Origin: Octopus sinensis
Taxonomy: Eukaryota
Assembly (NCBI RefSeq): GCF_006345805.1
Contig: NW_021836508.1
Span: forward strand, 1 to 23,916
Direction: 5' to 3'
Length of the DNA: 23,916 nucleotides
The notes beneath the pieces were generated by a model, which saw only the letters and a program-made list of their open reading frames with translations, was not told the origin of the DNA and did no database searches. The position numbers and the translations under genes are program-made. Positions 1 through 23,916 of the stretch are shown piece after piece; the stretch's first letter is position 1; each line of letters starts with the position of its first letter.

Positions 1-1432
1 TCTCGTCGCTTCTGTACGTATTGACTCTAGAGCTACGACTGCGAGAACTGGCGACGCTGAGAGGCATCCCGTGAGAACTGGGGTGCGGGAGGAGCATGTC
101 TGCATACAGACGATATTACCGTCATAGTGTCGAGCCACAGGCATATCGACCTCGTCCGCGAGACACTAAAGGAATACGAAGCGCTAACGAGAGGAAAAAT
201 TAACTGGGAAAAGTCTGGGATTGGGGCTCGGAACCTGGAGAAGCAAGCCCATGCCGTCCAAAAGCGTCTCCATCGTGAGACGCTTGATCGACGGACCGGT
301 TAAATTGCTCGGGGTCTGTTTCGGTCCGGACCTCCAAATGGAGAAGAACTGGGACGAGATAACGACTAGGGTGGCCATTCTCACCTAGCAATGTGCCGAG
401 AGGAAGCTATCCTTAAAGGTCGGGTTGAGGTGGTGAACGCGTACATCGCATCCGTCATCGATTACCGTCTGACCGTCGTACCTTGTCCCGACCCTACCAT
501 CACCAAACTGGAACGCATACTACTCCGCTTTTTGTGGAAGGGAAGCCTTCCGATGTTTAGGTGATCCATTTGCTGTCAACACCCGCTAAATGGAGGGCTG
601 GGCATGCCGTAGTTGATGCGCAGACATGCGCTGACACTGCGACATCTCCGGCGCTTCACAGACGACGGTGAAGAGGAGTGGTTGCCGTTCGTGCGGCGCG
701 CTTTCCCGCAGCTCGTCTCTTAGGCCGAACTGCAGTCGTGGGTCAAACAGAGACCGAGGCTAGGCGAATGGCACCGCGAGTGCTGCCTTGCTCTCAAACA
801 ACCCTGCCGTCCGGGACGAAACTTTAATTCTACGAAGGCGTTCTATAGAGGATTAGTGGAGGGGAGGTGCAACGACGTTCTCGGGGAGAATCTGGGCATC
901 GACGAGTAACACCTGACTTGCCTTTTCAGGACAACTTTCGGGCCGGGACCTATGGACAATCACCAGAGATCCCTGGCCTGTCAGTGCTTTCGAGGCGTAT
1001 TGCTCGTTCGAGATAAGCTCTACAGGCACAGTTCGAGAGACACCGGACCGACTTGCCTGAGTTGCGGTTAGAACGACGAAACCGTTCTGCACGCACTCCA
1101 ACCATTTCGGACCCGTGTGCTTATGCCGAACGACTGCTGTTGTGTGTGGGACGAATTCGGTTGTCGGCCGAGGATATTGTGAAAATTCCTCTGCCACCTT
1201 CCCGGGAAGGCTAGGCAGTTTTCATTGCACTGGTGGCTATGGTGAAAGAATGTGTGTGGTGGACACGAGCGAGAGGTTTACAGACAAGCACTGTCCTCTC
1301 TGGCCAATCGCTCATCAACCTTTTCAAGTACCACTTGAAAAGGAAGGTGAGAATAGATTGAATAAAAGGTGGGTGAATGTAGAAAAGATGGTACGCGCGA
1401 ATGACGAAACCACTTTGAGCATGATCCTGTAA
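1..1432 (+). pseudogene. LINE ORF2 remnant: reverse transcriptase C-terminal half and Cys/His zinc-binding domain, with stops and frameshifts
   Basis: SAY(A)DDITVI at 99-126 (2-nt deletion in YADD), YEALTRGKINWEKS, FLWKG, NGGLGMP (~589-609), CLSCG*NDETVLHAL (~1054-1098); ends ...LSMIL* at 1432. Confidence 0.85.
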
Positions 1433-4450: not shown

Positions 4451-4629
4451 AATATACCGAGTCTATCAACGATCATAGCCTCAAGATAGATGCTTAGTTA
4501 AGCCCCAAGAAAATTATTTTAAGTCAACATGGCTACCGCTACTCTAGTTGATATCCCTACTCAGCGTTGATGGTTTGCATTAATGATACATGCTGTGAAA
4601 CCATAATTTAGTTTTGTCACTTCACTACC

Positions 4630-4860
4630 TGTTTCTTTACTACCCACCAGGGGCTAAACACAGAGAGGACAAACAAGGACAGACAAATGTATTAAGTCGA
4701 TTACATCGACCCCAGTGCGTAACTGGTACTTAATTTATCGACACCGAAAAGATAAAAGGCAAAATCGACCTCGGCGGAATTTAAACTCAGAACGTAACGG
4801 TAGACGAAATACGGCTACGCATTTCGCCCGGCGTGCTAACGGTTCTGCCAGCTCGCCGTC
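4630..4860 (-). mobile_element. SINE family 1, full-length copy
   Basis: Reverse complement of the family sequence; 16-bp TSD ttgtcacttcactacc at 4614-4629 and 4861-4876. Confidence 0.93.
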
Positions 4861-5912
4861 TTGTCACTTCACTACCGTCTGGTTGTTATTGCTAGCGTTG
4901 TTGATGAGGCCAAACTCAGAGTCAGGTCTGATGGATCCGACTAATAGACTCTCCAATCCGGTTTATCCACTTTGAAGGTTTTATGATGATATAATGTCCA
5001 TTGCAGGTTACTCAGCTGCCCTTTCTAACATACTGAGCAACAACACGAGAACTCCTATATTGGTTTGACTGCAAACTTGTTGGTTAAGTTCGTGAACAAT
5101 GCTCAACACTAGTTAATATTACTCGTGTTAGCTGGTCTAATTAATCTACGTCTCATCACTGATGTTGAAAGTGGGTCACTAAAAAGGAAAAATGATTTCA
5201 GATATCCATTAATAGTTTGAATTTGAGATGAAACTGGTTTGATTTCTGTTTTTTTAAGATGCCTCTGCGGTCTTTGAATTAAATCTTTTCAGGTATTTTA
5301 AACTAAACGTCTTTAGGTCTTTGAGAGAGAATATTGAAATTGTGAGTTGGCATTACAATATGAGATAATGAAGGAGCAGTATCTCCAAGGCTGAAACCCC
5401 TTAGAAATTGTTGCTAAATCTCCCTTGAATCATACGACACTGCCTTTAAAAACAACAGATTAGAAAATATAGTCGTAGGTGCCTTAATTGCGACATATTG
5501 TTCTAGATATATTAGGTCTGAATAAATGGTGGGATGGTCAAAAGTGGAACCCCAGCGATCATAGAACTACTCAATCGAAGATGTTCTGCGGTGTGTGGCA
5601 TGTAAGCAGTAACAACAAGAACGACAATAATTGCCACATCATCGACAACAGCATCACTCATCAGTGTGGGTCAAAGACAGTTTTGATATTTATCGAATTT
5701 TTACTAATAGAAGAATGATCGCCCACCCGTCTCCCCTATGACACAAAAAGCGAATTAAGTATCATGTAGCATCAAAGTTCAACATTGGCTTAATGGTTTT
5801 TTTAATGTTTTTTTTTAATGGCTTTTAATGGAGCTTTGAACTTGTACATTTTGACAAGACACGTCTATACTGTTGGTAGAAACGACACTGTAATAAGATT
5901 CATATTTATTTA

Positions 5913-6160: not shown

Positions 6161-6194
<34 letters not shown>
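5913..6194. repeat. (CA)n/(CG)-mixed and (TA)n microsatellite
   Basis: Direct reading. Confidence 0.95.
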
Positions 6195-6197
<3 letters not shown>

Positions 6198-7824
6198 TTG
6201 CGGTCAAAATGTTCAGAACGGCATTGTTTTTGTCAGAAAAGTAGGTATAAGTTTTTATTAAAGTTGTTTTATATTCTATAATTTTCACAGACAATAAATA
6301 CGATATTATTTGTTATTGTCTGAGATTTTGGTGTAATTTGAGAGGATAATAAAAAAGTTATGGATGATTTAGTGATTTACTGCAAAACCCATGGCGGCCA
6401 AAATGATCAGAACGGTTGCTTTTACTCCATGTTTTAGTATATTTAACCGTCGAACTCTAATGTTTTGAATTTGTTTACGTGACGGTTCGTTTACTAAACA
6501 TTAGTAAGAATATCTGCAGTGTACTTTGTTAATATAATGCCACTTACTCCGTTACCAATTCGTCAGCAGATTATTAAGCTTCGAAAGAAGGATAATTTAA
6601 GTATTAGGTCTATGGCAAAGATTGTTAACAAGTCAAAAAGTGTTGTTCACGGTATTCTTAAGGTCTACGATGATTGTGGTTCGTGTGAAGCAAGAAAGTC
6701 TACAGGTAGGCCAAGAAAATCGACCAAGAGAGAAGATCGTGCTATGGTAAAGTTGGTTAAAAAGAACAGACTTAAAACTGCTGCTGCTGTTTTTCGGTAA
6801 ATGAGCATTGTACCGAAGAAAACTTTATCTCGAAAAACTGTGTCTCGTCCTTTAGTTGAACATGACTTACAAGCAAGAGCACCTGCAGTGAAGCCACTGA
6901 TCAGCTCCAAGAATAAAAAGTGTCGTCTTACCTTTGCAACCGAACATGTGTTGTGGTCTCAAGAAAAATGGCAAACGGTGCATTTCAGTGATGAATCTAA
7001 GTCTATGTTATTTGGCTCAGATGGGAAAAGGTACGTTCGTCGAAAAGCAGGTGAAAAATTGTCACCTAAATGCCTTAAGACTAGTGTTAAATTCGGTGGA
7101 GGAAGTGTCATGGTTTGGGGGATGATATCTGGAGATGTTGTGGGCCCTTTGCTGCGATTACATGGAAAGGTAAATACAGGAGTTTATAAACAACTTGTAG
7201 AAGATCATGTCTTGCCTGTGCTGAGAAATTCAACTAAGCGACCACCCATATTCATGCAGGACAATGCCCCATGTCACAAGGCTAAGGTGGTCATGAACTT
7301 CCTCAAAGCTGAAAAGGTTGTTGTTATGGATTGGCCTGCTCAAAGCCCAGACCTCAATCCTATTGAAAATGTGTGGAATATTCTAGGAGAACGTTTGAAA
7401 GCCAGAAATCCTAAAACAACCGAGCAATTATGGAATGCCCTTTAGGAAGAATGGAATAAGATCCCCCAGCAAGAAATTGAAAATTTAATTTCCCCATGCT
7501 GTCGAAAATGTCAAACTTTGATTGAAGCTAAAGGGCTTCACACTAAATATGAAGTTATTCCAGCATTCTCTGTCACTTTTTGATTATTTTGTTATTTTTT
7601 CAACCATTCTGATCATTTTGGCCACCATGGGTTTTGCAGTAAATCACTATATTATCCATAACTTTTGTATTATCCACTCAAATTACACCAAAATCTCAGA
7701 CAATATCAATTAATATGATATTTATTGTCTGTGAAAATTATAGAATATAAAACAACTTTAATAAAAACTTATACCTACTTTTCTGACAAAAACAATGCCA
7801 TTCTGAACATTTTGGCCGCAACTG
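6195..7824 (+). mobile_element. Full-length Tc1-family DNA transposon (DD34E, IR/DR type), inactivated
   Basis: Starts CAGTTG and ends CAACTG, with TA on both sides; ~224-bp TIRs (6195-6418 and 7601-7824); internal transposase. Confidence 0.97.
6537..7550 (+). pseudogene. Tc1 transposase with two in-frame premature stops (6798-6800, 7443-7445)
   Basis: HTH region with GRPRK, catalytic FSDES / QDNAPCH / SPDLNPIE with 34 residues between the second D and E; the frame continues EEWNKIP...AKGLHTKY past the second stop. Confidence 0.95.
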
Positions 7825-7828
7825 TATA

Positions 7829-8074
7829 TGTGGAGGCACAATGCCTAGTGGTTAGAGCAGCGGACTCGTGATCCAGGGATCGCGGGTTCGAATCTCAAAC
7901 CGGGCGATGTGTGTGTTTATGAGCGAAACACCTAAGCTCCACGCGGCGAACTTCAGCTGACTCTTTCGCCTCTACTTTCTCTCAACTCACCTGCGACGGA
8001 CCGGCGTCCCGTCCAGGTGGGGAACCTAAACCTGGAAACCGGCCCTTATGAGCCAGACGTGGCTCGAGAAGAAA

Positions 8075-11368: not shown

Positions 11369-11395
11369 ATTGTGTATCATTTATTTCGAACGAAT

Positions 11396-11910
11396 ATGTC
11401 GGTCGAAATAATCCAAGAAACGAACCAGCTGCATGAGCCTGCAAAAAAGTTCGCGGCAGTAGCCGCTGTAACTTCTAAAAGTATTGTTATAGAAATGGAG
11501 AAGCTCTCCGAGCTTTTTGAGAGAATGAAAGAGGAGGGTAGGGATATAAAGATCTCACCCTCCCTAGTGTTGATAACCAGAAGAGAAGGACTGTCGTTTA
11601 CAAAACGTACTGTCCTTCATCGAAGAAATTCAAGCACTTCGAAAAGTACGAAATAGAAAAATGCCTGGCCCCTATATGGAAAGATATAAAATACATAGCG
11701 AGGGGCCGGGCATATGGAACAATAGAGGACAGATTTGAGACGGCCGAAAAAGACCAAGAGCACTCAGTGAGTCCTCTGAAAACGAAGGAGGTGGTGCTAC
11801 TCCCAACATACATGGGAAGGAGAACAGCACGCGTCCGAATAAACGAAGTACCACCAGAAATTGAGGCAAGGGAGGTGATGGCCGCCCTGTTCTATAACAG
11901 GACGGACAAA
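11396..11910 (+). pseudogene. Divergent, frameshifted, 3'-truncated Tx1/L1-type ORF1 (relative of the ORF1s at 19.4-23.9 kb)
   Basis: IKYIARGRAYGTIEDRF...VVLLPTYMGRRTARVRINEVPPEIEA aligns with INFLTRGSKYGTVVVHF...VTLLPTYLNRRITRIRVEGVPPNVEA; cut off by a minus-strand SINE fragment at ~11914-11957. Confidence 0.85.
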
Positions 11911-12000
11911 TTCCGACCGCGGCGGAATTTGAACTCAGAACGTAGCGGCAGACGAAAGAAAGGATGGATTTCTAAATGAAATAACACTGAAACCATACCT

Positions 12001-12232
12001 ATTTCTTTACTACCCAAAAGGGGCTAAACACAGAAGGGACAAACAAGGAGCGACAAACGGATTAAGTCGATTACATCGACCCCAGTGCGTAACTGATACT
12101 TAATTTATCGACCCCGAAAGGATGAAAGGCAAAGTCAACCTCGGCGGAATTTGAACTCACAACGTAACGACAAGCAAAATACCGTTAAGCATTTCGCCCG
12201 GCGTGCTAACGTTTCCGCCAGCTCGCCGCCTT
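12001..12232 (-). mobile_element. SINE family 1, full-length copy
   Basis: 21-bp TSD aataacactgaaacca(t/c)acct at 11980-12000 and 12233-12253. Confidence 0.93.
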
Positions 12233-12894
12233 AATAACACTGAAACCACACCTCAAAGATGTGTAATTTTAGACCTGTGTTTTTTGCTCTCACTGGTTTT
12301 CTGTTCTTTCTTGCTTAAATATGTCAGGCTTTTCTTTTCTTAGATTTCAATCTGTAGCTCTACATCTTTCAGATTTTAATATCAGCCGCCGCCTGAGATT
12401 GAAAAAGACAACATTTCTTACATTTTAAATTCTGCATTGTCTTCTCATTTTTTTTTGTTTTGTTTACTTTATCTCATCATATCTATAAATAAAACCATAT
12501 TTCCCTACAAAACCTCAAAACTGGAGACACTGGCTTTCAGTATGCAGACTCACAAACAACAACAATAATAATATAAAAAAGCTGGTAAAATATACTATTT
12601 TTCTTTCCATTCCATTTGTAGTTGTTGAACTTTCAAATGGAATAAATTAATATCGTGAAAAATAAACATGCAAAGGTTTCTCTCCACTGCAAAATCCCTA
12701 TGCAAAATAACTCTTCAAATAAATTTAAATAGTTGAACGTAGCGTTTGTATCAATATTTCCAGATGTTAAGGACAATTTTAGTTCTTCTTTCAGACAGTT
12801 AAACAAAATGTTCACCCGGTATGGTTGATTAAGTAATATGGCGCCGAGAACTGTCTATATTCGCTAACATATACATTAACATACTCATATGTTG

Positions 12895-13440
12895 AGGCGG
12901 CGAGCTGGCAGAAACGTTAACACGCCAGGCGAAATGTGGAGCCGTATTTCGTCTGCTGCTACGTTCTGAGTTCAAATACCGCCGAGGTCGACTTTGTTTT
13001 CAAATACCGCTGAGGTCGACTTATTTCGGGGTCGATTAAATAAGTACCAGTTATGCACTGGGGTCGATATAATCGACTTAATCCGTTTGTCTGTCCTTGT
13101 TTGTCCCCTCTGTGTTTAGCCCCTTGCGGGTAGTAAAGAAATAGGTATTTCGTCTGCCGTTACGTTCTGAGTTCAAATTCCGCCGAAGTCGACTTTGCCT
13201 TTCATCCTTTCGAGGTCGATTAAATAAGTACCAGTTACGCACTTGGGTCGATGTAATTGACTTAATCCGTTTGTCTGTCCTTGTTTGTCCTCTCTGTGTT
13301 TAGCCCCTTGTGAAATAGGTATTTCGTCCGTTCTTACGTTCTGAGTTCAAATTCCTCTGAGGTCTACGTTGCCTTTCATCCTTCCGGGTCAATAAAATAA
13401 ATACCAATTGAACACTGGGGCTGATGTAATCAACTTATTC
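12895..13440 (+). mobile_element. SINE family 1 trimer: one headed unit and two head-less units
   Basis: Units restart at ggtatttcgtc (13144, 13318); internal ~24-bp duplication at 12971-13022. Confidence 0.88.
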
Positions 13441-15680: not shown

Positions 15681-16284
15681 AAGGGAGTTAGTCGATACTA
15701 TCGATTGGTACATTTTTTTGTCGATTTCGGAAAAATGAAATGCAAAGTTAACCTCTGCGGGATCCGAACTCAGAGCCGGAATAAATATCGCAGAGTATTT
15801 TGTTCGACGCTCTAACAATTCTGCCAGGTCACCGCCAAGACATGAATGATTCTAGTCACAGTTAGAAACAAGCGGGGAGTCGACCTCAAACAATGAAACG
15901 AATGAAGCACTCATTAATTATATAATTATATCATGGCTCTGTTGTTTAATTACTGTGGATGATACCTATTAACGAGCTTGTTAGACTGATTCAGTTCGAG
16001 TCACGTTCCTTGGGGGTGTGTCCTGTGCAGAACGCTGTCAGAGGTAGAGCAATTTATGGACATTCGATATATCGACCGATTACTGGATATTATCTGGTAT
16101 CGGCCAGCTGAGACTTCCACACGTTTGGCCTTCACGAAACCGAAGAAAACATTATAAAAAGCACTGGATATTCCAGAGATCGAACTTACGAACAACAAAG
16201 CCAAGAAAAAAATAAAAAGAAAAAAGCCCCGAAACATTATCTCTATGTTCAATCATAGTGACTTTTCCATACTCTCGAACTATA

Positions 16285-16517
16285 TATTTCTTTATTTCCC
16301 ACAAGGGGCTAAACACAGAGGGGACAAACAAGGACAGACAAACGGATTAAGTCGATTACATCGAACCCAGTGCGTAACTAGTACTTAATTTATCGACCCC
16401 GAAAGGATGAAAGGCAAAGTCGACCTCGGCGGAATTTGAACCCAGAACGTAACGGTAGACGAAATACGGCTACGCATTTCGCCCCGCGTGTTAACGTTTC
16501 TGCAAGCTCGCCGCCTT
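16285..16517 (-). mobile_element. SINE family 1, full-length copy
   Basis: TSD ata(c/a)tctcgaactata at 16269-16284 and 16518-16533. Confidence 0.93.
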
Positions 16518-18336: not shown

Positions 18337-18724
18337 GTGGAGGCGCAATGGTCCAGCGGTTAGGGCAGCGGGCTCGCAGTCGTAGGATCGCGGTTTCGAT
18401 TCCCAGACCGGGCGTTGTGAGTATTTATTGAGCGAAAACACCTAAAAGCTCTACGATGCTCCGGCAGGGGATGGTGGTGATCCCTGCTGTACTCTTTCAC
18501 CACAACTTTCTCTTACTCTTACTTCCTGTTTCTGTTGTACCTGTATTTCAAAGGGCCGGCCTTGTCACTCTCTGTGTCACGCTGAATATCCCCGAGAACT
18601 ACGTTAAGGGTACACGTGTCTGTGGAGTGCTCAGCCACTTACACGTTAATTTCACGAGCAGGCTGTTCCGTTGATTCGGATCAACCGGAACCCTCATCGT
18701 CGTAACCGACGGAGTGCTTCCATC
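18337..18724 (+). mobile_element. tRNA-headed SINE family 2, variant c
   Basis: 12-bp TSD attagtcataag at 18325-18336 and 18725-18736; A-box-like and B-box-like (gtttcgattccc) motifs. Confidence 0.9.
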
Positions 18725-19220
18725 ATTAGTCATAAGATACAGTGTACATTTAAACACATAAGGAATCCACTCGTGGGATTCAACACGCTAGAAAGAACAG
18801 CTAGGTTCTATAACCACAAAATTAGGGATAAAATTCGACAGGAACGAAATTTCATGGCTGATACATTATTTTATCGACGAAGGAAGAAATTGACGCCGGA
18901 GGCATCCGAACTCAGATCGTAGAGATCCAGAAGAAATACCGCAAAGCAGTTTTCCAACGCTCTCACAATTGAGCTAATCCATCGTGCTTTGCTAAATGAA
19001 GTATGGGTACCTTAGGGTGTTAGGAAGATAGACTGACAGCAAAACAAACAATGAAGTGAATAGTTTTTAAACGCACAATACCAATATTTAGTCTTAATAT
19101 ATATGAAATCACCCAAGCACATTAACAGAGAAATTACTGAAAAGGGGAGCAAAAAAAGGAAGTAACATTTTTGTGTTAGTAGAATAAAGAGCGCGCCATG
19201 GCAGCGAGTTGGCAAAAACG

Positions 19221-20970
19221 TCACCACTTCGTTTGACGTCGGTTGTGTTTTTTTCGGCTCCTGAAAATTCGGTAAAAAAGAACAAAAAGCGTTGTTGTTG
19301 TTGTGGAAATTCTGAACGGCGTTGACGCGGTTTCGCGTTTCGCTCGTTCAGCGCGTTAAACTTTTTTCTGTTTTGGCGGCCGTTTTCGGTCTGTCAGACA
19401 GAAGGAAATGGACTATGAGTCTCTAACAGACTTGTCCACGACAGATGAGGAACTAGAACAGGCAATTGCAGTGAAGCTGATGGAGGAAAAGGCTGGAGTT
19501 TTCGAGTCTTTATCAGACTCGCCTACGTCTGAGAAGGAGCTAGAAATGGCAGCGAGGAATTTGGAAAAGAAGCTGAGTTATACTTATGCCGGTGTAACCA
19601 AGAAGGCGGAAGAGAAAGGGGTCGACTTGGCCAAGCTACCAAGTTACCAGAAACACATGAAAAGGAAAGCGGTGAGGTGGAACTATCACCGACACCCAGG
19701 AGAAAAGAATGGTATGATAAGAGGACCATTGTTTACAGGGTGTGCGCAAACGAAAGGAAGAGGGTAGAAGTTGTATCCATGGAATGGATAGAGGAAGCCC
19801 TGCGAAGAACTGAGGAGGAAATAAATTTTCTGACTCGAGGATCCAAGTATGGGACCGTAGTTGTGCATTTTAAAAGTGAATCTGCAGCGAGGAAGATGGC
19901 GGCGAAGGCGGTGAAGTCGGAAAAGGTAACACTGTTACCTACGTATTTAAACAGGAGGATTACACGAATAAGGGTGGAGGGAGTGCCACCAAACGTGGAG
20001 GCAGAATGGATTGTGGCGGCTGTGATCAGCGGCCACGAGGACGAAGTAGATATTCTCCATGCCTCGGTTAAGTCCGAGGGCTGGAGAGGCGTAACAGTGG
20101 AGCTGAACGTACAGGCAGAGACCGAGGTACTGGTGGACCTGACGGAAAGCATCAGACTGGGAGAAGTGATCATGAGAGTGTGGGTGGAGGGCAGGGCTCC
20201 ACGTTGTTACAAGTGTGGCCTGAGGGGTCACATAAGAGCCTTCTGCCCTCCCCCAGGGAAAGAAATGGATCCCGAACCAGAGAGAGAGAAGCAGAAACCA
20301 GAGGAGAAGGAAACAGAGGAAGAGAATACACAGAAATGGAAGGAAGCTGGAAGTAAGAGAAGAGAAGAATACGTGGAAAAGAAAATAATATGGAACTCCA
20401 ATCCACCCCAAAACCACCCACGCCCTCTGAGTCCCACCCTATCCATGCAGACATTGAACCCACCGCTCCCCCCCCCCAAAAAGAAAACAAAAGAAAAAAA
20501 AGAATACACACACACAAGAGATTGAAATCGATATCAGGCCGTACATTTGTACTATGACTGAACAGAAAGAAGTTAAAAGTCTAATGGAAGAGTATAAATG
20601 GTATGATGTTGGTGAGACTAGGTATGCTGTGATTGAAAAGAAGAACATAGGTGACTTTATGGTGATGTGTGAATGCGAGAATTGGGAGGTGAAAGATATA
20701 AGAATGAGCGATGAATTCGTGGAAAATATGGATGAGTATTTCGGAGTAAGAATGGATATGGAATTTATTCGTATTGGCAAAGAACATTCAAGTGACTATG
20801 AAAAACAAAGGACAGGTAAGTGATGCTGACGGACGGGGCCGTTGGTATCGCTTTCATTTAATCATTTTTTCGTTTAACAATTCATGTTCATAAAGTTTAA
20901 TTATAATGTTCTATGTCCCCATGTCTTTTGGTGTCCCCTTCTGTGTCGCCCCTAGTGGGTAATAAAGAAA
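19221..20970 (+). mobile_element. ORF1-only non-autonomous non-LTR element (HAL1-like, Tx1-related), copy A
   Basis: Starts tcaccacttcgtttgacg, ends cccctagtgggtaataaagaaa; encodes ORF1 only, with no RT or endonuclease. Confidence 0.85.
19408..20823 (+). pseudogene. ORF1 protein (RRM-like domains and CX2CX4HX4C knuckle), frameshifted
   Basis: Collinear with copies B and C; frameshifts near 19663, ~20360 and the C-run at ~20470; CYKCGLRGHIRAFC. Confidence 0.85.
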
Positions 20971-22642
20971 TCACCACTTCGTTTGACGTCGGTTGTGTTT
21001 TTTTCGGCTCCTGAAAATTCGGTAAAAAAGAACAAAAAGTGAATGGTTGTTGTTGTGAAATTTTGAGCGTAGTTGATGCGGTTTCGCGTTTCACTGGTTC
21101 TGCGCGTTGCACTTTTTCGGTTCGGGAGGCCGTTTTTCGGTCTGAGGCGATTATGAGCCGCCTCCATCAAACGGAGGAGATGGAAGGGAGAAATTTCTCT
21201 GAAATTTCGACGGAAGTATTGACATCTGAGGAGGAGTTGGCGGTGAGGGGGATGGAGGGCACCTGCGCGGGTGTGACGAGGAAGTCGATGGAAGGAGAGA
21301 TGGACCTGGCTAGGTTGACGGGCCTCCGGGAGTTTGTGAAGGAGGACGAGAGCGGAGAGGTCGAGCTGCTGCCTCCGGTGGGGCGCGGAGGCTGGTTCCA
21401 TCGTGGAACCGTTGAATGTGAAGTGTTTATGAATGGAGGTGGAAAGATGGAAGTGGTTAACATGGAAGCGGTTGAAGGGGCTCTCAGGCGGACGGGAGAG
21501 GAGGTTGTGTGCTTGACGGGAGGATTGCAGTGCGGAGCCATAGCGGTGCAGTTTAGAAGTGAGGGGGTGGCCAGGAATGTGGCAGCCGGGGTGGTGAGTG
21601 CAGAGGGGTTTTACTTGTTGCCCTCGTGTCTGAATGGGCGGACGGCCGGAATTGGGGTGGAAGGAGTGCCTCCGCGCCTGGAGGGCGAATTGATGGCGGC
21701 TGCGGTTGTGAAAGGAAGTGAAGATGGAGTGGACGTCCTCCACGCCATTATGAAGTGTGAAGGCGTGAGAGGTGCCACACTAGTTATGAACATTCAAACG
21801 GAGGCGGATGTTATAGAGAGGATTACGGACAGCATAAAAACTGGAAATATTATTATGAGAGTGTGGGTGGAGGGTAGGGCGCCCAGGTGCTACAAGTGTG
21901 GCCAAAGGGGTCACATAAGAGCCTACTGCCCTCCCCCACCAAAGGAAAAAGAAAAGGAAAGCGTTGAGGAAGCCTCAGGAGAGGAAGAAAATAAACAGAA
22001 ACAAACAGAGAAGGAAACGACAGAAGAAGAGATGCAACAAGAGTGGAAAGAAGGGGGAACAAAGAGAAAAAGAAAGAAAAAGAAAAACTGTGCGAAGCCC
22101 CAACCCACCCCGACACCACCCATACCCTTGGAGTCCCATCCTTCCCCTGCAAACAGTGATTCCACCCACTCCCCGCCTACAAGAAAATCAAAAAAAACAG
22201 ACACACAGAGCAAAGAAAGTCCCAAGACCCATTTTTTATGTGTTATACATGGGAAAGACATACAAAACGTTAAAAAACAGGTGTTAACCAAGTGGTACGA
22301 ACACGAAGATTGTAGCTACACGGCTGTGGATAGTGATGATACGGGTATATTGGCGAGAAGGTTTGAGGAAGAGGGTGTGTGTTGGAGGTCAGTGGAAATG
22401 AAAGATGAATGGATAGAGATGGCTAATAGAAAAACGAATGTTGTGATAGGAAAACAAGGAATACTAATTGGAAATGGGTGAAGAAGGACAGATAAGTGAT
22501 GCTGGCGGATGGGGCCGTCGGTATCACTCTCATATATCATTTTCATATTCCATTTTGCTCATATATATGTAATTGTGATGTTCTATGTCCCCAATGTTTG
22601 TAATGTCCCCTCTATGTAGCCCCTAGTGGGTAATAAAGAAAT
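20971..22642 (+). mobile_element. ORF1-only element, copy B (A-to-G hypermutated)
   Basis: Same 5' and 3' termini as copy A; fused directly to the copy A tail. Confidence 0.9.
21153..22481 (+). CDS. ORF1/gag-like nucleic-acid-binding protein, 442 aa from the first ATG
   Basis: Open frame; CYKCGQRGHIRAYC knuckle, basic KRKRKKKK patch, Pro-rich linker; ATG shared with copy C. Confidence 0.8.
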   Translation: MSRLHQTEEMEGRNFSEISTEVLTSEEELAVRGMEGTCAGVTRKSMEGEMDLARLTGLREFVKEDESGEVELLPPVGRGGWFHRGTVECEVFMNGGGKMEVVNMEAVEGALRRTGEEVVCLTGGLQCGAIAVQFRSEGVARNVAAGVVSAEGFYLLPSCLNGRTAGIGVEGVPPRLEGELMAAAVVKGSEDGVDVLHAIMKCEGVRGATLVMNIQTEADVIERITDSIKTGNIIMRVWVEGRAPRCYKCGQRGHIRAYCPPPPKEKEKESVEEASGEEENKQKQTEKETTEEEMQQEWKEGGTKRKRKKKKNCAKPQPTPTPPIPLESHPSPANSDSTHSPPTRKSKKTDTQSKESPKTHFLCVIHGKDIQNVKKQVLTKWYEHEDCSYTAVDSDDTGILARRFEEEGVCWRSVEMKDEWIEMANRKTNVVIGKQGILIGNG

Positions 22643-22650
22643 CAGAAACG

Positions 22651-23916
22651 TCACCACTTCGTTTGACGTCGGTTGTGTTTTTTTCGGCTCCTGAAAGTTC
22701 GGTAAAAAAGAGCAAAAGGCGTGGTTGTTGTTGTGGAAACTCTGAACGGCGTTGACGCGGTTTCGCGTTTCGCTCGTTCAGCGCGTTAAACTTTTTCGGT
22801 TCGGGAGGCCGTTTTTCGGTCTGAGGCGATTATGAGCCGCCTCCATCAAACGGAGGAGATGGAAGGGAGAAATTTCTCTGAAATTCCGACGGAAGTATTG
22901 ACATCTGAGGAGGAGTTGGCGGTGAAAAAGATGGAAGGCACCTACGCAGGTGTAACGAAGAAGTCAATGGAAAGAGAGATAGACCTGGCTAAGTTGACGG
23001 GCTTCCAGGAGTTTGTGAAGGAGGACGAGAACGGAGAGGTCGAGCTGCTGCCTCCAGTAGGGCGCGGAGACTGGTTCCATCGTAGAACCATTAAATATAA
23101 AGTATTTATGAATGGAGGTAGAAAGATGGAAGTAATTAACATGGAAGCAATTGAAGAGGCTCTCAAGCAGACAGGAGAGGAAATTGTGTACATGACAAAA
23201 GGATTACAATACGGAACTATAACGGTGCAATTTAAAAGTGAAAAAGTAGCCAGGAATGTAGCAGCCAAGGTGGTGAGTACAGAAAAGTTTTACTTGTTAC
23301 CCTCGTATCTGAATAGGCGGACAACCAGAATTAGGGTGGAAGGAATACCTCCACACCTAGAGGGCGAATTAATAACGGCTGCGGTTATAAAAGGAAATGA
23401 AGATAAAGTGGACATCCTCCACGCCATTATGAAGTATGAAGGCGTGAGAGGTGCCACACTAGTTATGAACATTCAAACGGAGGCGGATGTTATAGAGAGG
23501 ATTACGGACAGCATAAAAACTGGAAATATTATTATGAGAGTGTGGGTGGAGGGTAGGGCGCCCAGGTGCTACAAGTGTGGCCAAAGGGGTCACATAAGAG
23601 CCTACTGCCCTCCCCCACCAAAGGAAAAAGAAAAGGAAAGCGTTGAGGAAGCCTCAGGAGAGGAAGAAAATAAACAGAAACAAACAGAGAAAGAAACGAC
23701 AGAAGAAGAGGAGATGCAACAAGAGTGGAAAGAAGGGGGAACAAAGAGAAAAAGAAAGAAAAAGAAAAACTGTGCGAAGCCCCAACCCACCCCGACACCA
23801 CCCATACCCTTGGAGTCCCATCCTCCCCCTGCAAACAGTGATTCCACCCACTCCCCGCCTACAAGAAAATCAAAAAAAACAGACACACAGAGCAAAGAAA
23901 GTCCCAAGACCCATTT
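22651..23916 (+). mobile_element. ORF1-only element, copy C (runs off the window end)
   Basis: Same 5' end; nearly identical to copy B outside the hypermutated block and part of the 5' UTR. Confidence 0.9.
22832..23916 (+). CDS. ORF1 protein, unedited version, open to the window end (missing from the ORF track because it has no stop)
   Basis: MSRLHQTEE...YAGVTKK...QYGTITVQFKSE...LPSYLNRRTTRIRVEGIPP...CYKCGQRGHIRAYC. Confidence 0.85.
   Translation, partial: MSRLHQTEEMEGRNFSEIPTEVLTSEEELAVKKMEGTYAGVTKKSMEREIDLAKLTGFQEFVKEDENGEVELLPPVGRGDWFHRRTIKYKVFMNGGRKMEVINMEAIEEALKQTGEEIVYMTKGLQYGTITVQFKSEKVARNVAAKVVSTEKFYLLPSYLNRRTTRIRVEGIPPHLEGELITAAVIKGNEDKVDILHAIMKYEGVRGATLVMNIQTEADVIERITDSIKTGNIIMRVWVEGRAPRCYKCGQRGHIRAYCPPPPKEKEKESVEEASGEEENKQKQTEKETTEEEEMQQEWKEGGTKRKRKKKKNCAKPQPTPTPPIPLESHPPPANSDSTHSPPTRKSKKTDTQSKESPKTH

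What the first reader, a model, noticed from the sequence alone, without database searches (positions are those of the whole stretch)
21247..21757. ADAR-type A-to-G hyper-edited retroelement RNA fixed in the genome
Seen: codon-by-codon alignment of copy B with copy C (offset 1679) gives by hand count about 80 A(C)-to-G(B) differences in this ~510-bp block, no G-to-A and only ~3 other changes. The ~480 bp downstream differ at only ~3 places. Only ~2 changed As have a 5' G; in GA(A) runs the first A is spared (gtgaaaaag to gtgaggggg). Outgroup copy A agrees with C (YAGVTKK, DLAKL, YGT, FKSE, YLNRR), so B is the derived copy. Established: sense-strand clustered A-to-G with 5'-G avoidance is the ADAR hyper-editing signature, inosine is reverse transcribed as G, and coleoid cephalopods edit RNA extensively. 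Inference: an edited transcript was reverse transcribed and inserted, making RNA editing heritable.
Basis: partly seen in the sequence, partly recalled or inferred. Interest (0 to 1): 0.95.

Follow-up and report, generated by a model that had tools for sequence, protein, structure and literature searches.

The report
ADAR-edited retrotransposon copies in octopus DNA
Several copies of a young octopus jumping gene carry dense blocks of A-to-G changes with the fingerprint of RNA editing, which suggests that edited RNA was copied back into the chromosomes, so that a normally temporary RNA change became a DNA mutation.

Summary
Confirmed and extended. Copy B differs from copy C at 80 of 184 adenosines (all A>G) in 21247-21757, with 3 other changes and no G>A. 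As with a 5' G are spared (2/53 against 78/131, p=1e-13). 38 other family copies read A at these sites (2999 of 3040 cells), so B is the derived copy. The unit is a non-autonomous ORF1-only (two RRM-like domains plus CCHC knuckle) L1/Tx1-type element. It sits in tandem arrays inside a SINE and shares both ends with an APE-RT partner. Six more heavily edited copies lie on chromosomes, in both subfamilies tested, with the same 5'-G avoidance (pooled 31/408 against 407/765). The five C-type ones do not form a clade (AU p=9e-47). No G>A, T>C or C>T clusters occur in 141 units. One edited copy matches public-run contigs letter for letter, and a run labelled as a second organism holds four other G-rich alleles. 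B itself was not seen in four runs, so 'fixed' is unproven. Best reading: ADAR hyper-edits sense RNA, which is then reverse transcribed into the genome. The double-stranded partner was not found. No report of this for germline non-LTR copies turned up in 10 literature searches.

The parts
19181..19195 (+). Left 15-bp target-site duplication of the host SINE; the right copy follows the SINE 3' part in contig C9380
   Evidence: ties the window contig to C9380 as one locus
19200..19221 (+). 5' end of the host SINE, ending in the 9-bp word (19213-19221) duplicated by the element's insertion
   Evidence: four uninterrupted SINEs in the window show the empty site
19222..20971 (+). Unit A: ORF1-only unit of the A subfamily, without an A>G cluster; ORF1 from ATG 19408 is split over three frames (frameshifts)
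20972..22642 (+). Unit B: ORF1-only unit of the C subfamily (shared 5' head, ORF1, shared 3' tail ending in AATAAAGAAAT); joined to A without the duplicated word
21153..22481 (+). ORF1 of B, open, 442 aa; 49 of the first 216 residues differ from C; two RRM-like domains, a CCHC knuckle, then a charged and proline-rich tail
   Evidence: domains from the model of C and Pfam
21247..21757 (+). Hyper-edited block: 80 A>G of 184 As, 5'-G As spared; covers codons 32-202 of ORF1 (most of the RRM-like region)
22643..22651 (+). Target-duplication word between B and C
22652..23916 (+). Unit C: unedited ORF1-only unit (ATG 22832), cut by the contig end; continues in C9380 (minus strand) with one more unit and the SINE 3' part
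16279..16517 (-). Uninterrupted copy of the target SINE (others at 4624-4862 -, 12000-12233 -, about 12895-13152 +); shares its 3' tail with the element

Best explanation
B is a retrotransposed copy of an ADAR-hyper-edited RNA. SHOWN: B is a unit of a young non-LTR family of the L1/Tx1 kind. ORF1-only units share their 5' head and 3' tail with an autonomous APE-RT element and insert at one site of a SINE, building tandem arrays. A few percent of units carry 200-790-nt blocks of sense-strand A>G with 5'-G avoidance, each with its own pattern, next to unedited neighbours. INFERRED: (1) the sense RNA paired over its 5' half with an antisense RNA from another copy; (2) ADAR deaminated 17-46% of the As in that duplex; (3) the partner's ORF2 reverse transcribed the RNA by target-primed RT, reading I as G; (4) this happened in the germ line or early embryo, so the copy reached a genome assembly. 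The likely effect is damage: the ORF1 start codon reads GTG in 4 of 5 edited C-type copies, and B's ORF1 has 49 changes in 216 residues. A>G makes no new stop, so B stays open.
For: Spectrum and context of B; polarity. Six more copies: C5:19.15 Mb 116/254 As, C30:4.28 Mb 90/198, C9:0.479 Mb 30/68, C9:76.2 Mb 19/66, C5:48.44 Mb 67/182 with no other private change, and C5:48.43 Mb 37/222. Pooled 5'-G 31/408 against 407/765, p=5e-61. Runs of 10 or more of one change: A>G in 7 of 141 units; G>A, T>C and C>T in 0 of 141. The five C-type copies fall in five lineages on a tree built without A/G columns, and one clade is rejected (p-AU 9e-47; B with the C5 copy p=0.007). RT partner: Exo_endo_phos, RVT_1 and zf-RVT, about 40 copies at 96-100%. 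Deaminase (A_deamin) matches in the genome. The C5:19.15 Mb copy matches contigs of runs X1 and X4 in 24/24 and 38/38 differences and in 18 of 18 listed letters. 5'-G depletion is the shared ADAR motif across animals, and octopus has an exceptional hyper-editing rate (PMC5625713, passages).
Against: B's own allele was not seen: at its private base 21513 all covering contigs read A (X1 40/40, X3 85/85, X4 16/16; X2 had no cover there). No source of double-stranded RNA was found: no inverted repeat over 19 nt in 18700-23916, only short stems on folding (z=-2.0), and no close opposite-strand pair among the first 100 of 226 family matches. PMC5625713 reports a 3' A preference in invertebrates; here there is none (hand sums: 3' A 124/406, G 158/381, C 87/182, T 69/204). 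Edited sites overlap between copies more than a flat model predicts (B and C5: 62 shared, 48 expected); I put this down to site preference. No edited RNA was observed. 0 of 30 autonomous ORF1 copies were edited. In human cells L1 RNA was not detectably edited by ADAR1 (PMC5224506, passages).
Confidence: 0.87

Rival explanations
1. Same editing, other route into DNA: cDNA of an edited RNA recombined with (gene-converted) a resident copy instead of inserting as a new unit.
For: The blocks have sharp edges with near-identical flanks. In 3 of 5 C-type cases an unedited unit of the same array is among the closest relatives (B with the C9380 unit; the C5 and C9:0.479 Mb copies with their neighbours).
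Against: New insertion is the family's normal route (target duplications). The C30 edited copy stands alone in a SINE with its own duplication. Local relatedness also follows from repeated insertion or RT template jumps from one source.
Confidence: 0.06
2. ADAR deaminated DNA directly in an RNA:DNA hybrid (an R-loop or the insertion intermediate).
For: ADARs can edit dA in DNA/RNA hybrids in vitro (PMC12925331, passages). It would give the same 5'-G avoidance.
Against: In the insertion hybrid, and in R-loops of sense transcripts, the DNA strand is the minus strand, which predicts T>C on the sense strand; 0 of 141 units show that. It would need antisense-only R-loops and up to 46% conversion escaping repair (reasoning from my own knowledge).
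Confidence: 0.03
3. Copy B is an assembly, polishing or somatic-only product (for example contamination by cDNA), not an inherited allele.
For: The window is an unplaced contig. B is not in the four runs laid. Contig C9380 begins exactly at the position equivalent to B's first edit.
Against: Six other edited copies lie on chromosome-scale contigs. One is reproduced exactly by contigs at depth 16-21 in two runs. B lies inside an array bracketed by SINE halves and a 15-bp duplication. The known cluster artefact is G>A in capillary traces (PMC2873906, passages). This rival could at most remove B, not the phenomenon.
Confidence: 0.03
4. Error-prone reverse transcription (dNTP imbalance) or G>A editing of the other copies (APOBEC-like, CpG decay).
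For: Clustered single-type changes after RT are known for G>A (PMC4866542, passages).
Against: A is the majority at 80 of 80 sites in 38 copies. Read as G>A from B there is no GG/GA or CpG pattern. I know no RT bias that spares 5'-G As and stops at block edges.
Confidence: 0.01

Closest known systems
[quoted passage not shown]
   Same: Clustered A>G in DNA after reverse transcription of edited RNA; nearly 50% of As in RAV/ALV (PMC12925331, passages); integrated BLV proviruses with 7 or more A>G in about 70 bp (PMC8025556, passages).
   Different: Those are infectious LTR viruses in somatic cells or culture, with mostly short LTR windows. Here it is a non-LTR host element in a genome assembly, with blocks of 200-790 nt in the coding region, recurring in two subfamilies.
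APOBEC G-to-A edited LTR retrotransposons in vertebrate genomes (Knisbacher and Levanon, PMC4866542)
   Same: Host deaminase marks preserved in single genomic copies against an unedited family; strand-biased, with a sequence motif.
   Different: Enzyme and substrate (cytidine in cDNA against adenosine in RNA), change (G>A against A>G) and element class. That screen covered LTR elements, selected for G>A over A>G, and found 19 invertebrate genomes at noise level; the word ADAR does not occur in its main text (passages; supplements not read).
ADAR hyper-editing of repeat RNA in cephalopods (PMC5625713, PMC9068888)
   Same: Same change and 5'-G depletion; repeat-directed editing is widespread in coleoid tissues, and a role against transposons is called unexplored there (passages).
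   Different: Those are RNA-DNA differences. Here the marks are in the genomic copies.
ADAR1 restriction of human LINE-1 (PMC5224506)
   Same: ADAR acting on a LINE.
   Different: That restriction was editing-independent and no edits were seen in L1 RNA (passages); here the edits are the evidence.
Target-specific Tx1-clade non-LTR retrotransposons
   Same: APE endonuclease, RT, and insertion into one site of a multicopy repeat (PMC4640811, passages); a named relative of ORF2 is a TX1 149 kDa protein.
   Different: The target here is a SINE that shares the element's 3' tail, and most copies are ORF1-only units of several diverged types in tandem. I found no paper on this family; Repbase could not be searched.

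Membership tests
ADAR A-to-I hyper-editing signature | Dense cluster of A>G only, on one strand | tested here: met
   80 A>G, 0 G>A, 3 others in 511 nt; 7 of 141 units A>G, 0 for the other transitions
ADAR A-to-I hyper-editing signature | Depletion of G 5' of edited A | tested here: met
   2/53 against 78/131 in B; pooled 31/408 against 407/765
ADAR A-to-I hyper-editing signature | 3' neighbour preference (A in invertebrates per PMC5625713) | tested here: not met
   No 3' bias in B; hand-pooled rates A 0.31, G 0.41, C 0.48, T 0.34. The paper's normalisation may differ.
ADAR A-to-I hyper-editing signature | A long double-stranded RNA covering the block | tested here: inconclusive
   No cis inverted repeat; no close inverted pair among the first 100 of 226 matches; a partner in trans could not be tested
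ADAR A-to-I hyper-editing signature | Host encodes ADAR-type deaminases | tested here: met
   17 PF02137 matches over the cut-off, on 7 contigs. The family also includes ADAT1 and ADAD (own knowledge); genes were not assigned.
ADAR A-to-I hyper-editing signature | Inosine or A>G reads in the element's RNA; loss on ADAR knock-down | not testable with these tools
   No run on record as RNA was listed
L1/Tx1-group non-LTR retrotransposon | ORF2 with APE endonuclease, RT and C-terminal zinc-binding domain in the autonomous partner | tested here: met
   Pfam; best solved relative human L1 ORF2p E=1e-60 against R2 1e-22
L1/Tx1-group non-LTR retrotransposon | ORF1 with RRM-type domains and a CCHC knuckle | tested here: met
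   zf-CCHC in 7 of 7 members at E<=1, under the curated cut-off for C; model pLDDT 72 matches tandem-RRM structures, E about 3e-5, low TM-scores; Atlas leads agree
L1/Tx1-group non-LTR retrotransposon | No LTRs; target-site duplication; shared 3' end between autonomous and non-autonomous copies | tested here: met
Tx1 clade specifically | RT phylogeny places it with reference Tx1 elements | not tested
   No reference set was on hand; only a named TX1 homologue at 32% identity
Tx1 clade specifically | Sequence-specific insertion into a multicopy repeat | tested here: met
   Of 17 array-start junctions, 11 were classed as SINE 5' end by motif and 4 more look like it by eye; 10 of 26 array-end junctions were classed as SINE 3' part
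APOBEC-type G>A DNA editing | G>A on the sense strand against the family state | tested here: not met
tRNA-derived SINE (host repeat) | tRNA-related head | tested here: inconclusive
   ARAGORN and Rfam found nothing on the SINE 3' part in C9380; an intact copy was not scanned; A/B-box-like words seen by eye only

The most novel reading that the evidence does not exclude
In octopuses, ADAR editing is a routine germ-line mutagen of mobile elements, an invertebrate counterpart of APOBEC editing. A few percent of new insertions arrive with tens to over a hundred A>G changes in one step. Most are disabled (start codon lost), but because A>G makes no stops some, like B, keep an open, heavily recoded ORF1. 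Those could seed the family's unusually diverse ORF1 types. The genome would then hold a fossil record of germ-line RNA editing, readable across cephalopod assemblies and perhaps in retrocopies of host mRNAs.
Probability: 0.4. Interest if true: 0.92.

Novelty: new variant of a known kind. Interest (0 to 1): 0.8.

Why it matters
Cephalopod RNA editing is treated as not directly inherited (PMC7703385, passages), and its role against transposons is called unexplored (PMC9068888). These copies are DNA-level evidence that ADAR-type editing acts on retrotransposon RNA that is on its way into the genome. That makes the question testable from assemblies alone, by scanning repeat families for sense-strand A>G clusters with 5'-G avoidance. 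The marks also trace the RNA step: edited units between unedited neighbours indicate that array units pass through RNA one by one. They warn that repeat ages, subfamily calls and RNA-editing calls in octopus can be distorted by genomically encoded 'edits'.

Tried and rejected
C as the mutated copy: rejected. One ancestral edited copy for all C-type cases: rejected. Codon-level selection as the cause: edits fall evenly on the three positions. Fold-back in cis: not found. An empty allele of the window's site elsewhere in the assembly: not found, but the search scored only 40 of 1691 candidates, mostly a repeat in the query. 'Edited copies are always first in an array': 4 of 7 are first or alone, but B is second, the C9:76.2 Mb copy follows a full element and one C5:48.4 Mb copy is fourth of seven. 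Editing as the driver of subfamily divergence: inconclusive, because A/G differences avoid 5' G (37/256) but the mirror control T/C avoids 3' C as well (10/127). No RNA holder listed, which says nothing on expression. Run X2 (kind unknown, small) gave one partly G-rich contig and was not used. The shares of words (0.17, 0.08, 0.04) are small and were not taken as support for B. Three weak candidates among 42 further units (C4:73.58 Mb 5-7 A>G, C2:193.36 Mb 5, C2:157.26 Mb 24 among many other changes) were not counted. A search with an edited A-type copy brought no further edited copy in its top 40. Earlier scan findings: none. Three papers recalled as relevant were not held, so I could not check whether they describe A>G-edited genomic copies.

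Full report
OBSERVATION. The window is a whole unplaced contig (G000:C12979) of a 2.72-Gb genome. The only database relative of the unit's protein is labelled Octopus sinensis, and an ORF2 relative is labelled Argonauta hians, so the host is taken as an octopus. Three tandem units end the window: A (19222-20971), B (20972-22642) and C (22652 to the contig end). Aligned with C at offset 1679, B has 80 A>G among 184 As in 21247-21757, with 2 T>C, 1 A>T and no G>A. The 136 nt before the block differ once; the 480 nt after it differ by two substitutions and one 3-nt indel. As after G are spared (2/53, against A 34/67, C 15/27, T 29/37; p=1e-13). There is no 3' bias, and the three codon positions are hit alike. 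At B's 80 sites, 38 other C-type units read A in 2999 of 3040 cells and G in 11, so B is derived.

THE ELEMENT. Each unit is a shared 5' head, one ORF and a shared 3' tail ending in AATAAAGAAAT. The ORF has a CCHC knuckle, and its model (pLDDT 72) matches tandem RRM structures with low TM-scores: an ORF1-type RNA-binding protein. Elements with the same ends carry a second ORF with Exo_endo_phos, RVT_1 and zf-RVT. Its closest solved structure is human L1 ORF2p (E=1e-60; R2 1e-22), it has a relative named TX1 149 kDa, and 40 of 40 scored matches are 96-100% identical. A 27-nt ORF1 pattern has 226 exact matches and its reversed control none. Arrays start after the first ~20 nt of a 240-bp SINE and often end before its remainder, with a ~9-bp duplication that recurs between many units. 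Four intact SINEs in the window show the empty site, and the SINE shares the element's 3' tail. The window's array continues in contig C9380, which overlaps C by about 990 nt with one substitution; a 15-bp duplication brackets the split SINE across both contigs. I call it a non-autonomous L1/Tx1-type unit. No RT tree against Tx1 references was made.

B IS NOT ALONE. A search with B's block ranked two other loci above the unedited copies. Five C-type copies are hyper-edited: B (79/183 private sites in this count), C5:19.15 Mb (116/254), C30:4.28 Mb (90/198), C9:0.479 Mb (30/68) and C9:76.2 Mb (19/66), each with 5'-G avoidance; six control copies have 0-3 private A>G. Two A-type copies in one seven-unit array, units 1 and 4, have 67/182 and 37/222, the first with no other private change. 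Pooled, 31 of 408 As after G are changed against 407 of 765 others (p=5e-61). Runs of 10 or more identical changes: A>G in 5 of 43 C-type, 2 of 68 A-type and 0 of 30 autonomous ORF1 copies; G>A, T>C and C>T in none of the 141. These sets are enriched, because two searches used edited queries. A fairer figure is about 3%: 3 of the first 100 listed pattern matches are heavy cases, and of the 46 that I had not held before, 42 could be scored and none was heavy. The other 126 matches were not listed.

INDEPENDENT EVENTS. The edited site sets are not nested (B and the C5 copy: 62 shared, 15 and 19 private; 48 expected on a flat model). On 853 columns without A/G variation, the five C-type copies sit in five lineages, each closest to unedited units. 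Forcing them into one clade is rejected (p-AU 9e-47; B with C5 p=0.007; quick tree). The excess sharing is best read as site preference of one enzyme on one substrate. For the two A-type copies (24 shared, 43 and 13 private) a partly shared history was not excluded. All main blocks lie in the 5' half: C positions 22746-23534 and A positions 19443-20129. The A-rich 3' half is untouched in B and carries at most six scattered A>G in the others. The A of the start codon reads G in 4 of 5 C-type copies, but not in B, whose ORF stays open with 49 changes in 216 residues.

PUBLIC RUNS. B's block shares none of its 481 31-mers with C, so it can be tested separately. Five runs were listed, none on record as RNA, and four were laid on 20900-22000 (all are assembled contigs, with kind guessed as DNA for X1, X3 and X4). 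Against B: where contigs cover its private base 21513, all read A (X1, X3, X4). The tool warns that records are filtered, and I cannot tell whether these runs come from the assembled animal. For the phenomenon: X4 record 28 (369 nt, depth 16) and X1 record 4 (230 nt, depth 21) differ from B at 38 and 24 places, exactly as the C5:19.15 Mb copy does, and 18 of 18 listed letters agree. X1 and X4 are one sample and may be the assembly's source, so this shows the copy is in raw data, not that it is shared between animals. X3, labelled as another organism, has four G-rich contigs over the block (depths 37.2, 13.4, 19.2, 15.6). By my arithmetic on table 3 they differ from each other, from B, and from the C5 and C30 copies. 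Identical patterns at such depth point to DNA templates rather than to freshly edited RNA (inference).

MECHANISM. Shown: strand, spectrum, context, polarity, recurrence, an RT partner, insertion hallmarks and deaminase-domain genes. Inferred: an antisense RNA pairs with the 5' half of unit RNA, ADAR converts many As, and ORF2 copies the RNA into the SINE target in germ-line or early cells. 5'-G depletion is the motif common to all animals examined, and octopus is an extreme hyper-editor (PMC5625713, passages). That paper's invertebrate 3'-A preference is not seen here. The duplex was not found in cis. Why the 3' half is spared is unexplained: a partial antisense partner, protection by bound protein, or selection for an intact 3' end are all possible. 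Direct DNA editing in a hybrid predicts T>C on the sense strand, which is absent. cDNA-mediated conversion of a resident copy remains a minor alternative that still makes edited RNA heritable.

COMPARISON AND NOVELTY. A>G-hypermutated DNA after reverse transcription is known for retroviruses (PMC12925331, PMC8025556; passages). Deaminase marks in inherited retroelement copies are known for APOBEC G>A in vertebrate LTR elements, with invertebrates as a blank control (PMC4866542; passages). Human L1 RNA was not detectably edited by ADAR1 (PMC5224506; passages). Cephalopod papers describe repeat editing at the RNA level only (PMC9068888, PMC7703385, PMC9115989; passages). Ten searches listed no paper reporting ADAR-edited non-LTR copies in a genome. 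I judged most hits from listings and abstracts only, read no supplements, and three recalled papers were not held; subscription journals are largely missing from the library. The parts are known chemistry; the combination (ADAR, non-LTR, invertebrate genome, recurrent at percent level) appears undescribed.

VERDICT. Real, correctly read by the first stage, and larger than one copy. Confidence in ADAR-edited RNA written back by retrotransposition: 0.87. 'Fixed' is not shown for B. New variant of a known kind; interest 0.8.

Noticed in passing
window 19200-23916, C9380 and about 25 other arrays: A family of ORF1-only units of several diverged types (32-91% identical to C) with common ends, in tandem arrays of up to at least 9 units inside one SINE site. 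Junction words are often array-specific (for example C6:70.54-70.56 Mb), which suggests repeated local insertion or RT template jumps.
   Followed up: partly
window 4624-4862, 12000-12233, 12895-13152, 16279-16517: The target SINE shares its 3' tail with the element that inserts into it, so the LINE probably mobilises its own target.
   Followed up: partly
L187 (G000:C9:102290001-102300000): Two autonomous elements lie head to head as a roughly 10-kb near-palindrome, 96-98% identical: either a real source of long dsRNA for the autonomous type or an assembly fold-back artefact.
   Followed up: partly
G000:C9380:29512 (minus strand start): The contig begins exactly at the position equivalent to B's first edited base (C 22926), as if the assembler broke where B-type and C-type reads diverge.
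   Followed up: no
G000:C5:14122032-14122184 and C30:4282301-4282458: Small A>G clusters confined to the 5' head (9 in 23 nt; 6 in 14 nt), so editing can reach the untranslated head.
   Followed up: partly
L218, L209, L207: Possible lightly edited or old edited units (5-7, 5 and 24 A>G with few or no 5' G); not counted.
   Followed up: partly
window 6498-7445: Tc1/mariner-type transposase remnant (HTH_Tnp_Tc3_2 and DDE_3), with inverted repeats at 6190-6418 and 7601-7829.
   Followed up: no
window 1-303 and 11369-11979: A weak RT fragment at the window start (RVT_1 E=0.19) and a decayed ORF1-like piece resembling this family by eye, followed by a SINE on the other strand.
   Followed up: no
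G000:C2502:263721-264758: A full-length adenosine-deaminase-domain match in about 1 kb with six stops; may be a processed pseudogene of an ADAR-family gene.
   Followed up: no
runs X1 and X4: Though listed as one sample, the two runs differ in subfamily make-up (a 9-nt deletion type at high depth in X1, none in X4).
   Followed up: no
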